Below are positions 57,001 to 63,000 of a stretch of DNA of 64,000 nucleotides, piece after piece. A program made the position numbers. The stretch spans positions 761-64,760 of the forward strand of contig CAZCSM010000008.1 in assembly GCA_964501355.1 (NCBI GenBank). The letters run 5' to 3'. How positions within the stretch are numbered: position 1 is the stretch's first letter; the number at the start of each line of letters is the position of its first letter. Source of the DNA: an uncultured Candidatus Saccharibacteria bacterium. Its GTDB lineage: Bacteria > Patescibacteriota > Dojkabacteria > CAZCSM01.

Positions 57001-60000
57001 AAATGGAACGAAATATCAAAGTGGCTTACATCAAGTCCTTTTTTTCGTCCCTATATTTCTTCTACACCACCTGGTACGCATTCGAAACACAGTTCGCAAC
57101 ACCCGCAACGCTAGGCGCAATATATTCATTCACACACCTAGTCACCGTCGTACTCGAACTGCCAACCGGAGCACTTGCTGATTTGATCGGAAGAAAAAAG
57201 ACCGTCACACTCGGAATGATATTACAAGGAGTTGGCTGGATGTACATATCACAAGCAAAAGATGCCAGCTGGTTCTGGATCGGATACACAGTAGGAGCCG
57301 TAGGAATAGCATTATCATCAGGAGCAGACACAGCACTCGATTACGATTCACTCAAAGAATTAGGAAAAGAAAAAAGTTTCTCAATGTTCTCAACGAAAAA
57401 CAGAATAATCCATAGAATCGCAATGATACTCGGAATCGCCACCGGAGGATACATTTACAGAATAAGCCAACCATTACCATACCTATTAACCGGAGCAGCA
57501 ATAGTATTCTCCGGACTGTTAACACTATTTAGCACCGAACCAAAGATTGACTCCGAAAAGTTCAATTTGAAAAACTATATCAAACAAACCAAAGACGGAT
57601 TCAAACAACTATTCAAAACAGAATACATCAGAGATTTCTCAATCTACTACATGCTCGTCGGAGGAATCACATGGTATTTCATGTACTTCCTGGGGCAAGC
57701 GTTCACAACAGAAATAGGATTCACAGAAATAGAAAGAAGCTGGCTATTCACAGGAGTCTACATACTCGGAGAGTTAATAATGTTCTCACTGATAAAGAAA
57801 AAGAAATTAACAAGAAAAATCGTCTACATCATGTTCCCCGTCGCAATGATCATCGGATTCCTACCGGGATACTGGGTGAGTAAATTCTGGGCAGTAGTAA
57901 TAGTGTTCTTCGCACAAATCATCGGATCCGCAAGATTCACAATACTCGATCAATATTCAAACCAAGAGTTTGAATCAAAATACAGAGCAACCGCAATTTC
58001 CGCACTGAACATGGCGGTAAGTCTGGTATTCGTAGTTGTAACAACAGTCGCAGGAAAGTTCATAGAAGAATACGGAACCAGAACAATAATGACAGCACTT
58101 GGCGTGCTGACAATCATAGTCGTACTGCCACTAGCAAAAATCCTCGTAACAAATCATAAGGACAGAGAGTAGGGCATCGTTTTCGAAGAAAGCCCCAAAG
58201 TGTCATTCTCCGTATGGAGAATCAGACACTATGTAATATTCTGTGTCAGATCCTCGATTCCGAGGATGACACAGAAAAGTATATTGCCTCATAAACTTTT
58301 AATCTCCCGTTAATTTCTCGTTAAACAACCCATGTTATTTTGATACAGGTGTTCAAGAAACTAAAAGTTGGTTTGTCGGGATTAAGACCGATGCAGTATT
58401 AAAATAGTAATATTTTGATTAATGTACCCAGACGTTTCTCGAGCACCACTTTTTTATCCCCCCATTGAATCTCTACGACACCAGTGTGATAATGTGAGAA
58501 ATAATTCCGAGACAAAGTCATCTCTATGAAATCAAAAATCTCACTCGCGCAAATCGTTTCAATTATTCTTATCACAGTTTCAATAGTAATTGGAATCTGG
58601 CTGTACCCGTCATATCCGGATCAGGTTGCATCACATTGGGGAGTTGATGGCGAAGTAAACGGATGGATGAGCAAATTCTGGGGATTATTCTTCATGCCGG
58701 TAATTTCTACAGTCTTACTAATAATTCTCTCCATCGTTCCAGGAATTGATCCAAAGAAAAAGAATATTGAGGAATTCCGGAAATATTTTGACAATTTCGT
58801 TATTGCCATAATGGCAATGCTTTTCTATCTATACATACTGACCATTCTCTGGAATCTGGATTACGAACTGAACATGAACCAATGGTTAATGCCTGCATTT
58901 GCAATGGTATTTTATGAAGCCGGCGTAATGATTGGAAATGCGAAATCAAATTACACGATTGGGATAAGGACGCCTTGGACTATTGCGAACGAAGATGTTT
59001 GGAATAAAACTCACCTGCTGGGCGGAAAGTTGTTTAAAGGACTTGCCGTTGCAACACTATTCGGAATAATAATGCCTGAACTTGCAGTCTGGTTTGTGAT
59101 GGTACCGGTGTTACTGGTAACGGTGATATTGGTCACTTACTCGTATATAGAATTCAAAAAACAGCATATACAGTAATTGAAAAAGTTTTCTAAAGCAAAA
59201 GAATTGTATACTAATCAACTTCTCAATTCTCTTTATTGTTTTTTGCAAGGTTGTTCAGTGAAAAAGTCTTGTCATTGCGAGCAAAGCGTGGCAACCGCCT
59301 TTTTCAAAAGATTGCTTCGTCGTTACACTCCTCGCAATGACACTTCACTTGTAATTCTCTTCTTGAGCCGGAACCATCACTCGTGTATATTGATTATGGA
59401 AAAAACCATTTACTTAATAAACTTATTCCGATATGGAAGAACCGATTGTTTCAAATAACACGAATGTAACAGCATTGCTCAACAGCTTGAATGAAAAGCA
59501 AAGAGCCTATGTAAATCTGGATTTATCAAATCCTCAAAACAATTTGTATATGTTAACAGTATTTCATCTAGTACCGGGAAAGAATTTGAATATTCTGCAG
59601 GCTGCAGCAGAAGTTGCCGCAGAATCATCTTCAGGAACAAATTTCAAAGTACAAACAGAAACGCCATTTTCTAGAGAGATGAATGCGTTAGTTTATAAAG
59701 TTGATTTAGAGAAGAGCCTGGTCTGGATTGCATATCCTTGGAGAATTTTTGATCGCGGCGGCAATGTACAAAATATTCTGACATTCGTTGTCGGGAATGT
59801 TCTAGGAATGAAAGAAGTTTCTGCTTTGAAATTAATGGACGTTTGGTTCCCATCAGCAATGCTTGAACAGTATGATGGACCATCATATACACTCGACGAT
59901 ATGCGAAAATATTTGAACGCATACAACCGACCAATTCTTGGAACAATCGTTAAACCGAAGATTGGATTAACTGCATCGGAATATGCGGAAGTTTGTTATG

Positions 60001-63000
60001 ATTTCTGGGTTGGAGGAGGGGATTTCGTGAAGAATGATGAACCGCAGGCAAATCAGGATTTCTGCCAATATGACAAAATGGTTCTTTATGTTAAAGAAGC
60101 CATGGATAAAGCGGTTGCAGAAACGGGACAAAAGAAAGTTCACTCCTTTAACGTCTCTTCAGCGGACTTTGATGAAATGATTAGAAGATGTGAATTAATT
60201 AGAAACGCAGGATTCGAACCTGGAAGTTATGCATTCTTAATCGATGGAATCACAGCAGGATGGATGGCAGTTCAAACACTGAGAAGAAGATACCCTGATG
60301 TATTTCTACACTTCCACAGAGCTGCACATGGTGCTTTCACAAGACCGGAAAATCCACTTGGTTTTACGGTATTAGTTCTTGCAAAATTCGCAAGACTTGC
60401 CGGAGCATCAGGGATCCATACCGGTACGGCCGGAGTTGGGAAAATGCAAGGCTCTCCATCAGAAGATATTACCGCTGCGCATAACATCGAAATGTTTTCT
60501 GCAGAAGGTCATTTCTTCGGACAAAGCTGGTCTCAAATTCCTGACAGAGATATTGATGCAATTAATTTGGTAAAAGAGGATTTGGCTGAACATGTAATTC
60601 TAGAATCCGATTCCTGGAGAGGAATGAAGAAATGTTGTCCAATCATTTCCGGTGGATTAAATCCCGTAAAACTTAAACCATTTATCGACATTATCGGGAG
60701 CATGGATTTCATAACCACAATGGGAGCTGGCTGTAATGCCCATCCGGAAGGAACTCGAGCTGGAGCAGCAGCATTAGTTCAATCAATGGAAGCATACCAA
60801 AAAGGTGTTTCAATTGAAGAATATGCGAAAGATCACGTTGAACTTGCACAAGCGATAGAGTTTTTTGGAAAGAAATAAAACGTTGTCGTGCTTAGATGAA
60901 CAACCATCGGATAAAATCCGATGGTTTCTACCCTGCAGACTAGCATACAAAAGTTACTTCCCTTTGGTACTTGTATTCGATCGGTAAGTCGTCGAAGTCT
61001 GAAACAAGCCATTCCGGTCGTTATTTGCAAATGATTGCTATTTGCCGGAACTGGTTTGTTTCAGCACTTTTGGTTACTTTTGGTGACAAAAGTAACAATG
61101 TTGTAAGCATTGCATGATTCCGTACGAACAAACGAAATTATAGATTTTTGATAATCTATTCAACTTTCTTCAATTCTGCTTATACACAAACTCCTCACCC
61201 TCATAATTTCTCAATACAGCCTTTTCATCATCGAGTAAAATCATATATTCCGGAAGAATCGGAATTTTTCCTCCACCACCCGGAGCGTCAATCACATAAG
61301 TCGGAACCGACAATCCTGAAGTGAAACCTCGAAGTGCTTTGTAGATTTCCAAACCTTTTTGAACCTTCGTTCGAAAATGATTTGTACCTTTTACGATATC
61401 CGCTTGGTAAATATAGTAGGGACGAACACGAATCGAAACTAATTTCTGCACTAACTTTTTCATAACTTCCGGATCATCATTCACACCCTTGAGAAGAACA
61501 GTTTGACAGCCGAGCGGAATTCCGGCATCAGCGAGTAGCGAACAGGCTTTCGTTGATTCCGGAGTAATTTCATCCGGATGATTGAAATGAGTATTAATAA
61601 AGAGCGGATGATATTTCTTCAGTATTGTGCAAAGATTCGGAGTCACTCTTTGTGGCAACGCACAAGGAACTCTAGTTCCGATTCGAATAATTCCAGTCTC
61701 TCTTTTTGAGATTATTTCGAAAACCCTGGACAGAATTGAGTCGAGCTTTTCATCAGAAAGCATAAACGGATCGCCACCGGAAAGAATAACATCTCGAATC
61801 TCTTCATGCTTTCGCAGATATTCCAGAGCCTTTTCAATTTCTTCCTCGTTTGGTTGTTTATTTTCATCTCCAACTTTTCGTTTTCTTGTACAGAATCGGC
61901 AATACATGGAGCAAACATTCGAAATGCGGAAAAGCGCACGATCGGGATATCGATGTGTAAGCAAAGATGGAACATCTTTTCGTTTCTGATGTTCCGGCTC
62001 TTCACAGAGAGGATCCTCTTCTCCGGTTTGATCCGCAAGTTCGATTGAAGATGGAATGCATTGCTTGAAAATCGGATCATTTACACTTTTCACAAGCGAC
62101 AAATAGTAACCGTTGATAAATGCGGGATATTTCTCACAAACTTGTTCCAGTTCTTTTTTGTTTAAATTGAATCGTTTTGCAATTTCGGCAGGAGATGAGA
62201 GAGAATTCTCAAGAGTCGTTTTCCAGTCAGCAGGATTGCCGCCGGAGGAGTCGTCAGGGTCAGATTGTTCCATTAAAGTGAAATAAAAATAATAAAATAT
62301 CAATGATATAATTTAGACCTTTTGCAAAATAATGCAAGAGGTATTTTGGGATAGTAGGGGCGTATTGCAATACGCCCCTACACCACATCTTTATCAATGT
62401 CTAATCATTCATTTTAAATTAGTTAATAATCCTCTGTTATTTTAATGTAGGTGTTCAAGAAACTAGAAGTCAGTTTGTCAGGATTTAAAGACTGATGCAG
62501 AACTAAAATCGTAAGAAATTAGTTAATGCTCCTAGCGTTTCTCGAGCACCACTTTTTTATTTCCCCCAGTACGAAGATTTCCCTTTGGACTTTTTCATTA
62601 TTTCTGCATAAAATAATATAAATATTTAGATATATTAAAGATGAAAACTTCCCGCATTTTATCAGCCATCGGAATTCTTATGTTTACAGCATTTCTTTTT
62701 ACACCCGGAAAAGTTGATGCCGTGAATTGGGATGATAAAGAATCCGGAGGAATAATTGATCTTTATGTGAAGGAGATTCAAAATGACAGTTTTCTCTCAA
62801 CCCAAGATTTGGAGTTTGAATACCAAAACATTGTACCTCCCGGAGCATACACAACCGTGTACCCGTTCAAAGATGAAAGTTCACGTGTAAGTATTGGCAT
62901 AACTGCACACGAAGTTGTAAACGATGAGATCGACGAGATTATTAATAACCAAGGACTGGAAAGTGAAAAATTCAGTAATACAGTTGTCTATTATTATCCC

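What the first reader, a model, noticed from the sequence alone, without database searches (positions are those of the whole stretch)
58333..62577. Duplicated ~135-nt conserved non-coding element upstream of two membrane/secreted protein genes
58333-58468 and 62444-62577 are about 80% identical: gttatttt..ggtgttcaagaaacta.aagt..gtttgtc.ggatt.aaga.c.gatgcag...cgtttctcgagcaccacttttttat..cccc. Each ends about 60 bp before a + strand start codon (SdpI-like 58526, FecR-like secreted protein 62641). Conservation at this level in non-coding DNA suggests a shared cis-regulatory leader, a riboswitch-like element or an sRNA.
Basis: seen in the sequence. Interest (0 to 1): 0.55.

Follow-up and report, generated by a model that had tools for sequence, protein, structure and literature searches.

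The report
Duplicated candidate structured small RNA
Two ~145-bp non-coding copies in an uncultivated bacterium fold into the same three-armed RNA shape, kept by matching mutations, so this is probably a new small RNA or leader, but only these two copies exist and its function is unknown.

Summary
The duplication is real. Window 58320-58463 and 62422-62567 (+) are about 81% identical, there are only two copies in the 64 kb, and the flanks are unrelated. On the + strand both copies fold into one self-contained module. A 13-bp closing helix P1 has an A·C mismatch. A short extension P1b, a hairpin P2 and a hairpin P3 capped by a GUAA tetraloop follow. The module ends in AC-U6. Taking the structure from copy A alone, copy B's 20 substitutions give four double-compensatory pairs (conservative null P≈0.002; 0.02 with B's structure). 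P1 is invariant (0/28 columns against 19/74 inside, P=0.0014). A conserved TGTTATTTT sits at -15..-7 from the first P1 base. Rfam 15 has no match. No further copy turned up in GTDB genomes, JGI metagenomes, IMG/VR, plasmids, phages or the closest relatives' contigs. There is no conserved ORF, no target-site duplication and no shared antiterminator. The host is bacterial. Best reading: two paralogous genes for a ~105-nt structured RNA. A free-standing small RNA is slightly more likely than a leader or attenuator for the downstream SdpI-like and FecR-like genes. This is a lineage-restricted candidate new RNA family, modestly interesting, with a covariation test that rests on two sequences.

The parts
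58320..58347 (+). Copy A: conserved 5' flank with candidate promoter. TGTTATTTT at 58333-58341 is an extended -10-like motif at -15..-7 relative to G58348.
   Evidence: 19/28 positions are identical to copy B and TGTTATTTT is 9/9 identical. tRNA-Cys has TGTTACTCT at the same distance from its 5' end (read from the sequence). Promoter function is inferred.
58348..58447 (+). Copy A: structured RNA core. P1 is 58348-58361 / 58434-58447, P1b is 58368-58371 / 58428-58431, P2 is 58375-58379 / 58388-58392, and P3 is 58393-58425 with a GUAA loop at 58407-58410.
   Evidence: MFE -30.9 kcal/mol with z=-2.4 on the + strand, against z=-0.13 on the - strand. Pair list. The core folds as an autonomous domain inside the full leader.
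58448..58463 (+). Copy A: AC + U6 (58450-58455) + AU + C6 (58458-63). Likely 3' end or terminator tract, followed by a conserved C-run of unknown role.
   Evidence: Part of the 25-nt block that is identical in both copies. The terminator scan did not call it, because the 'loop' of P1 is 72 nt long.
62422..62449 (+). Copy B: conserved 5' flank with TGTTATTTT at 62435-62443.
62450..62550 (+). Copy B: structured RNA core. P1 is 62450-62463 / 62537-62550, P2 is 62477-62481 / 62492-62496 (or the 8-bp alternative 62469-62476 / 62489-62496), and P3 is 62497-62529 with a GUAA loop at 62511-62514.
   Evidence: MFE -31.8 kcal/mol, z=-2.9. Pairs. Autonomous domain in the long fold.
62551..62567 (+). Copy B: AC + U6 (62553-62558) + AUUU + C5 (62563-62567).
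58465..58493 (+). Sigma-70-like promoter match TTGAAT-17-(TG)GATAAT between element A and the SdpI-like start codon.
   Evidence: It is a consensus match only, and such matches are not enriched over shuffles.
62586..62614 (+). Sigma-70-like promoter match TGGACT-17-TAAAAT between element B and the FecR-like start codon.
   Evidence: Consensus match only.
58526..59176 (+). Downstream gene A: DUF1648/SdpI-family membrane protein (216 aa).
   Evidence: Pfam PF07853 at 4e-19 and PF13630 at 2e-16.
62641..63978 (+). Downstream gene B: FecR-domain protein with an N-terminal signal peptide and a C-terminal membrane anchor (445 aa).
   Evidence: Pfam PF04773 at 3e-13; translation.

Best explanation
The two copies are paralogous genes for a discrete, structured small RNA of about 105 nt on the + strand.

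Inferred steps:
- Transcription starts at the first base of P1 (G58348 / G62450), driven by the conserved extended -10-like TGTTATTTT seven bases upstream.
- The RNA folds into a long terminal helix P1 that pairs its 5' and 3' ends (13 bp, about -17 kcal/mol). P1 leads through a short extension P1b to a junction carrying hairpins P2 and P3, and P3 is capped by GUAA.
- The transcript ends in the U6 run 2 nt after P1, so P1 doubles as the terminator stem.
- P1 is very stable and nothing competes with it, so termination would be largely constitutive. The product would be a free small RNA, probably recognised sequence-specifically (for example by a protein) through the invariant P1 and junction nucleotides. 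It would not be a metabolite-controlled switch.

Shown: the duplication, the common fold, the compensatory substitutions, the strand bias and the uneven conservation.

Inferred: the transcript ends, independence from the downstream genes, and any partner.
For: - Both copies have the same fold on the + strand, z=-2.4 and -2.9. RNAalifold gives 31 pairs: 3 compensatory, 3 one-sided changes, 0 broken.
- With the structure taken from copy A alone, copy B's 20 substitutions give 4 double-compensatory pairs (columns 28-89, 36-49, 59-78, 66-71). P=0.0003 under a uniform null. P=0.0016 when substitutions are confined to the variable columns, and 0.022 using B's structure.
- The slid-partner control drops to about 40% of cells paired with no compensatory pairs.
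- Five G·U pairs in copy A would be A·C mismatches on the - strand, where z is -0.13.
- The GUAA tetraloop is conserved while the pair closing it switches from A-U to C-G.
- P1 has 0/28 columns changed against 19/74 inside, Fisher P=0.0014.
- The element folds as an autonomous domain inside both full leaders, and no alternative pairing is shared.
- Sigma-70-like promoter matches lie between the U-run and each ATG.
- Sequence between the C-run and the ATGs is not conserved.
- The closest SdpI-like homologues have no leader space.
Against: - Only two sequences exist, so covariation rests on 4 events and a P value of 0.002-0.02.
- Three pairs of A's structure are broken in B.
- No transcript data are available.
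- The conserved TGTTATTTT has no recognisable -35. The promoter scan called neither it nor the P1+U6 as a terminator. Canonical terminators and promoters are not enriched in this genome at all.
- Both copies lie co-oriented and 62-73 nt upstream of envelope-protein genes, which is what a cis-acting leader would look like.
- Conservation continues about 8 nt past the U-run (the C-run), which a transcript ending in the U-run does not explain.
Confidence: 0.42

Rival explanations
1. The element is a cis-acting 5' leader (riboswitch-like aptamer or protein-bound attenuator). The same RNA module is the start of the SdpI-like and FecR-like mRNAs. A ligand or protein modulates P1 formation and so controls termination at the U6 run, co-regulating two envelope proteins.
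For: - Both copies are co-oriented with a gene and immediately upstream of it, 62 and 73 nt from the ATG.
- Both genes encode membrane or secreted proteins.
- The fold is junction-type, with a GNRA loop and conserved junction nucleotides, and is followed by a U-run.
- Four substitutions changed together (G28A, G36A, C49U, C89U). This keeps two alternative folds possible, an 8-bp P2 or P1b plus a 5-bp P2, so the RNA could in principle switch.
Against: - No Rfam family matches at E<=10.
- No terminator/antiterminator alternative is shared by the two leaders.
- P1 is invariant and about -17 kcal/mol, so it is hard to see how it would be regulated. In known riboswitches P1 is usually the least conserved helix (own knowledge).
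- Promoter-like matches lie downstream of the U-run.
- SdpI-like homologues at 55-58% identity and the FecR-like homologue at 37% identity have no such leader.
Confidence: 0.3
2. The element acts at the DNA level. It could be a duplicated promoter/operator cassette in which the two 14-bp inverted arms, 72-73 bp (about 7 helical turns) apart, bind a regulator. Alternatively it could be the remnant of a small mobile element (MITE-like) with inverted repeats.
For: - The two arms and their immediate flanks are the only perfectly conserved parts, 17-nt and 25-nt blocks.
- The arm spacing is kept to within 1 bp.
- The unit of similarity is short and sharply bounded.
- The genome carries other dispersed short repeats.
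Against: - Compensatory changes inside P2 and P3, a conserved GNRA loop and the strand-specific G·U pairs are not expected for a protein-binding DNA site.
- The inverted arms are not at the ends of the conserved unit, which extends 28 nt further left and 16 nt further right.
- No target-site duplication sits at equivalent boundaries.
- Only two copies were found in 64 kb, and none in any collection.
Confidence: 0.13
3. It is a recent neutral duplication of non-functional intergenic DNA that is simply decaying.
For: Only one lineage carries it and there are only two copies. No homologue was found anywhere.
Against: - Divergence is strongly uneven, 0/28 against 19/74 columns, P=0.0014.
- Compensatory pairs exceed the conservative null.
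- The flanks on both sides are unrelated, so the unit was either selected or copied precisely.
Confidence: 0.08

Closest known systems
Junction-type riboswitch aptamers with a closing P1 helix (for example the purine riboswitch architecture)
   Same: About 100 nt long. P1 pairs the 5' and 3' ends, two hairpins emanate from a junction, the element sits upstream of and co-oriented with genes, and a U-run follows.
   Different: No sequence or structure match to any Rfam model. No separate expression platform or antiterminator. P1 is invariant instead of variable. Only two representatives exist, and no ligand is known.
Small RNAs whose 5' and 3' ends pair in a long terminal stem followed by an oligo-U tail (for example Y RNAs, and Rho-independent-terminated bacterial sRNAs present as paralogous copies)
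   Same: Size, a terminal stem with an internal mismatch, a U-rich 3' end, an invariant stem sequence suggesting sequence-specific recognition, and multiple paralogous copies per genome.
   Different: No Rfam hit to Y_RNA or any sRNA family. No Ro/Rsr-like or other partner gene is seen nearby. The comparison rests on general architecture recalled from the literature and is not a test.
Intrinsic (Rho-independent) terminators
   Same: A stable G+C-containing stem (about -17 kcal/mol) followed after 2 nt by U6.
   Different: The stem encloses a 72-73-nt structured insert instead of a 3-8-nt loop, so the scan does not call it. It is not at the 3' end of a gene. Copy B lies in a divergent intergenic region.
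MITEs / REP-like dispersed repeats
   Same: A short, sharply bounded repeated non-coding unit containing inverted repeats.
   Different: The inverted repeats are internal to the unit, there is no target-site duplication, there are only two copies, and the internal substitutions are compensatory.

Membership tests
Any Rfam 15 family | Covariance-model score at or above the family's gathering threshold | tested here: not met
   Only three tRNAs in the whole window reach threshold. At E<=10 over 58200-62700, no hit overlaps the + strand element.
Transcription-terminating riboswitch | Located in the 5' leader, same strand, upstream of the regulated gene | tested here: met
   Both copies are on the + strand, 62-73 nt upstream of + strand ATGs. 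Whether they are co-transcribed with the genes is unknown.
Transcription-terminating riboswitch | Aptamer structure supported by covariation across many representatives | tested here: inconclusive
   Only two sequences exist. Four compensatory pairs, P=0.0016-0.022.
Transcription-terminating riboswitch | Expression platform with mutually exclusive terminator and antiterminator | tested here: not met
   Long folds show an autonomous domain and no shared competing helix. The U-run follows P1 directly.
Transcription-terminating riboswitch | Specific ligand binding | not testable with these tools
   Needs in-line probing or ITC.
Intrinsic terminator | Stem-loop with a 3-8-nt loop followed within 0-2 nt by a T-run | tested here: not met
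   Stem and T-run are present, but the loop is 72-73 nt. The scan reports 0 terminator-like sites in both regions.
MITE / transposon remnant | Terminal inverted repeats at the ends of the repeated unit | tested here: not met
   Conservation extends 28 nt 5' and 16 nt 3' of the inverted arms.
MITE / transposon remnant | Flanking target-site duplication | tested here: not met
   No direct repeat at equivalent boundaries in A and B. A single 6-mer match in A only is what chance would give.
MITE / transposon remnant | Many dispersed copies | tested here: not met
   Two copies in 64 kb. The rest of the genome is not available.
Small protein-coding gene / leader peptide | Open reading frame conserved between copies | tested here: not met
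   All six frames are interrupted. The - strand ORF over copy A stops after 6 codons in copy B. The copies differ by 2-nt and 1-nt indels.
Hammerhead and other small self-cleaving ribozymes | Conserved catalytic core (for example CUGANGA ... GAAA at a three-way junction) | tested here: not met
   No ribozyme family at E<=10. The junction strands are UUU / none / AC (read from the sequence).

The most novel reading that the evidence does not exclude
The element is a new aptamer or riboswitch class in an uncultivated small-genome bacterium, in which the ligand-stabilised closing helix P1 is itself the terminator stem and there is no separate expression platform. It would co-regulate two envelope proteins, an SdpI-like immunity/signalling membrane protein and a FecR-domain sensor, through the two alternative inner folds that the coordinated G28A/G36A/C49U/C89U changes keep possible.
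Probability: 0.15. Interest if true: 0.7.

Novelty: new member of a known kind. Interest (0 to 1): 0.4.

Why it matters
If confirmed, this would be a previously undescribed structured RNA family from a poorly sampled, probably small-genome bacterial lineage. The nearest relatives have RuBisCO at no more than 91% identity and the two downstream proteins at no more than 55% and 37%. Few regulatory RNAs are known from such organisms.

It would also be a rare case where RNA structure can be argued from paralogues inside one genome. Its position in front of an SdpI-like gene and a FecR-like gene would point to RNA-level control or insulation of envelope functions.

The practical value is limited, because no other genome carries the element. 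It cannot be generalised or properly tested for covariation until more of this lineage is sequenced.

Tried and rejected
- **Rfam.** Gathering thresholds on the whole window and E<=10 on the region gave nothing relevant.
- **Two-arm pattern in GTDB species genomes.** Two hits, both matching only at the pattern bases, so chance.
- **Two-arm and single-block patterns in IMG/VR.** All hits were chance.
- **JGI metagenomes.** The strict pattern gave 0 hits. The loose pattern gave 54 hits against about 56 expected by chance, and none has the flanking GGTG...CACCACTTTTTT or passes nhmmer.
- **blastn against plasmids and phages.** No match.
- **Orthology route.**
  - FecR-like homologues reach only 37% identity and SdpI-like homologues only 58%.
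  - The FecR homologue's upstream region in L007 has no copy, and the closest SdpI homologues have no leader space.
- **Synteny route.** RuBisCO lies between the two copies. Relatives at 91, 86 and 81% identity were fetched (L008-L013). L009 keeps the RuBisCO and KamA gene order, but its spacer has no copy by nhmmer, blastn or CM.
- **Archaeal host.** Considered because the named RuBisCO relatives are DPANN or Methanosarcinales and TATA-like boxes precede the tRNAs. Rejected on three grounds:
  - tRNA-Leu is 82% identical over its full length to E. coli tRNA-Leu.
  - An Obg-fold GTPase and an ABC-F protein are present.
  - tRNA-Pro has C1-G72.
- **ECF-sigma promoter reading of GAAAC-N15/16.** The would-be -10 is not conserved (CGGG against CAGG), and this reading would not explain the 3' block.
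- **Pseudoknot between loop L2 (GGGAU) and the conserved C-run.** 5 bp in A, but only 4 bp in B with two G·U pairs and a different best register. Left as unexplained.
- **Small ORF or leader peptide, and target-site duplication.** Both rejected.
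Full report
**1. Observation**

The two stretches exist as described. Similarity begins at 58320 / 62422 (GTTAA...) and ends at 58463 / 62567, the end of a C-run. Outside these limits the sequences are unrelated.

The 122-column core alignment has 20 substitutions and 3 gap columns, about 81% identity. A profile of the pair finds each copy at E about 1e-48 and nothing else in the window. A covariance model run with filters off also finds no third copy: the next best hits score 15 bits or less at E>0.1.

Two blocks are identical in both copies: AGGTGTTCAAGAAACTA and CGTTTCTCGAGCACCACTTTTTTAT. For the 25-mer, 0 chance matches are expected.

The downstream genes are a DUF1648/SdpI-family membrane protein (58526-59176) and a FecR-domain protein with a signal peptide (62641-63978).

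**2. Host**

Named relatives of the RuBisCO gene that lies between the two copies are mostly DPANN archaea and Methanosarcinales. I therefore first considered an archaeal host. The evidence points to a bacterium instead:

- tRNA-Leu aligns end to end with E. coli tRNA-Leu at 82% identity.
- tRNA-Pro has the C1-G72/A73 arrangement, which is bacterial by my own knowledge of tRNA identity elements.
- The window encodes an Obg GTPase with the Obg-fold domain and an ABC-F protein.

The host is therefore bacterial. It is probably a small-genome, low-GC lineage (36-39% GC) that carries a form II/III RuBisCO.

The lineage is poorly sampled:

| Gene | Nearest relative |
|---|---|
| RuBisCO | 91% identity |
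| SdpI-like | 58% identity |
| FecR-like | 37% identity |

Canonical sigma-70 promoter matches and hairpin-plus-T terminators are not enriched over shuffles in 44-64 kb. Consensus scans therefore have little power in this genome.

**3. Anatomy**

On the + strand both copies fold into the same module.

- **P1** pairs GGUGUUCAAGAAAC with GUUUCUCGAGCACC. It has 13 pairs and one A·C mismatch, and scores about -17 kcal/mol alone.
- **Inside P1**, an A-rich asymmetric loop leads to a short helix P1b (UUGG/CCAG in A).
- **P2** is a hairpin (GUCGG...CCGAU).
- **P3** is a longer hairpin capped by the GNRA tetraloop GUAA.
- **After P1**, two bases later, comes U6, then AU(UU) and a conserved run of 5-6 C.
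- **Before P1**, TGTTATTTT occupies -15 to -7 relative to the first base of P1 in both copies. That is the geometry of an extended -10 promoter. tRNA-Cys in this window has TGTTACTCT at the same distance from its mature 5' end (read from the sequence).

When each leader is folded through to its start codon, the element remains a self-contained domain. No competing helix is shared by the two leaders.

**4. Is the structure more than a prediction?**

With two sequences the built-in shuffle control cannot go below 1/8. The slid-partner control falls to about 40% of cells paired with no compensatory pairs.

I therefore took the structure predicted from one copy alone and asked how the other copy's substitutions fall on it.

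| Structure from | Double-compensatory pairs | Pairs broken | Uniform null | Conservative null |
|---|---|---|---|---|
| Copy A | 4 (G-C→A-U at 28-89 and 36-49; U-A→C-G at 59-78; A-U→C-G at 66-71) | 3 | P=0.0003 | P=0.0016 |
| Copy B | 3 | 5 | P=0.008 | P=0.022 |

The uniform null scatters the 20 substitutions over all columns. The conservative null confines substitutions of the same types to the 77 variable columns.

The pair at 66-71 closes the GUAA loop.

G·U pairs (five in copy A) make the fold specific to the + strand. Copy A's minus strand folds no better than shuffled sequence, z=-0.13 against -2.40.

Conservation is uneven. P1 has 0 of 28 columns changed, against 19 of 74 in the interior (Fisher P=0.0014).

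Together these results argue for selection on an RNA (or single-stranded) structure plus sequence-specific constraint on P1. They argue against a neutrally decaying duplicate. The evidence is real but thin, resting on four events in one pair.

**5. What it is not**

- **A known RNA family.** No Rfam 15 family matches, even at E<=10.
- **A small protein or leader peptide.** No reading frame is open in both copies, and the indels are 2 nt and 1 nt.
- **A typical MITE.** The inverted arms are internal to the conserved unit, no target-site duplication sits at equivalent boundaries, and there are only two copies.
- **A conserved companion of SdpI-like or FecR-like genes.** The closest SdpI homologues overlap or abut their upstream genes, and the FecR homologue's upstream spacer has no copy.

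**6. Search for more copies**

Every route available was used.

- Two-arm patterns in GTDB species genomes gave 2 hits, matching only at the pattern bases.
- Two-arm and single-block patterns in IMG/VR gave only chance hits.
- In JGI metagenomes the strict pattern gave 0 hits. The loose pattern gave 54 hits against about 56 expected, and none is real.
- blastn against plasmids and phages found nothing.
- Contigs of the nearest RuBisCO relatives have no copy. This includes L009, which keeps the RuBisCO and KamA gene order.

Only two short read-assembly contigs carry copy A, and they are identical to the window (L001, L002). The element is therefore confined, as far as current data show, to this one lineage. 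The genome-wide covariation test could not be run.

**7. Mechanism**

*Shown:* a duplicated unit of about 145 bp with a common + strand fold, compensatory changes, an invariant terminal helix, a conserved -10-like motif at the right distance, and a U-run.

*Inferred:* transcription from about 58348 / 62450 to the U-run, giving an RNA of about 105 nt.

I favour a free-standing small RNA (0.42) over a cis-acting leader (0.30), for these reasons:

- P1 is very stable and invariant.
- No antiterminator exists.
- Promoter-like matches, one with a TG extension, lie between the U-run and each ATG.
- The spacer to the ATG is not conserved.

In favour of the leader model:

- Both copies are co-oriented with envelope-protein genes and immediately upstream of them.
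- The coordinated change G28A/G36A/C49U/C89U keeps two alternative inner folds possible.

DNA-level readings (0.13) and neutral duplication (0.08) fit the data worse.

*Unexplained:* why conservation continues through the C-run after U6, and which of the two inner folds is used.

**8. Verdict**

This is a genuine, duplicated candidate structured RNA with no known family. The kind of thing is familiar (a small structured RNA or leader), so I rate it a new member of a known kind. Interest is moderate, and limited by having two copies in a single uncultivated lineage and no transcript data.

Noticed in passing
window 3936-~43000: An integrative conjugative element appears to sit next to tRNA-Pro. 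A large serine recombinase (3997-5568, - strand) overlaps the 3' end of the tRNA. It is followed by a VirB4-like ATPase (15360-17204), a TraD-like coupling protein (19917-22511), DNA methyltransferase-like genes (31058-35202) and an ABC-F protein (27251-28825). No second copy of the tRNA 3' end was found in the window, so the far boundary is undefined.
   Followed up: partly
window 43805-43890 and 45126-45211: An 86-nt direct repeat at 98% identity flanks an MFS transporter gene (43932-45089). The second copy overlaps the 3' end of the Obg GTPase gene (45125-46075, - strand). The first copy therefore looks like a duplicated Obg 3' end left by insertion of the MFS gene. That MFS protein is only 26% identical to the MFS gene upstream of copy A.
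   Followed up: partly
window 43588-43636 and 43645-43693: A tandem pair of 49-nt repeats at 98% identity with 57-nt spacing lies just upstream of the 86-nt repeat.
   Followed up: no
window 48975-49032 / 59285-59342; 46303-46369 / 61030-61096; 58198-58275; L009 5105-5165: Short dispersed hairpin-forming repeats lie in intergenic DNA. Examples are ...GATTGCTTCGTCGT.A.ACTCCTCGCAATGACA at 81% identity, and TTTGGTTACTTTTG...CAAAAGTAAC at 75%. Imperfect palindromes of the GTGTCAT...ATGACACAG type lie just upstream of copy A, and a similar one is in a relative's contig. They look like REP-like elements and create spurious ORFs such as 59177-59458.
   Followed up: no
window 3570-3935: Each of the three closely spaced tRNA genes (Cys, Leu, Pro) is preceded by its own GTTCTTTAAA-type motif 16-27 nt upstream of the mature 5' end. 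All three encode CCA. tRNA-Cys has TGTTACTCT at -15..-7, so transcription may start at or very near the mature 5' end.
   Followed up: partly
window 59433-60878: A form II/III-type RuBisCO large subunit (481 aa) is present in what the tRNA evidence says is a bacterium. Its named relatives at about 80% identity are mostly DPANN archaea and Methanosarcinales, which suggests inter-domain transfer.
   Followed up: partly
window 62345-62380: A strong perfect hairpin, GTAGGGGCGTATTGCAATACGCCCCTAC, lies in the divergent spacer between the KamA-like gene and copy B.
   Followed up: no
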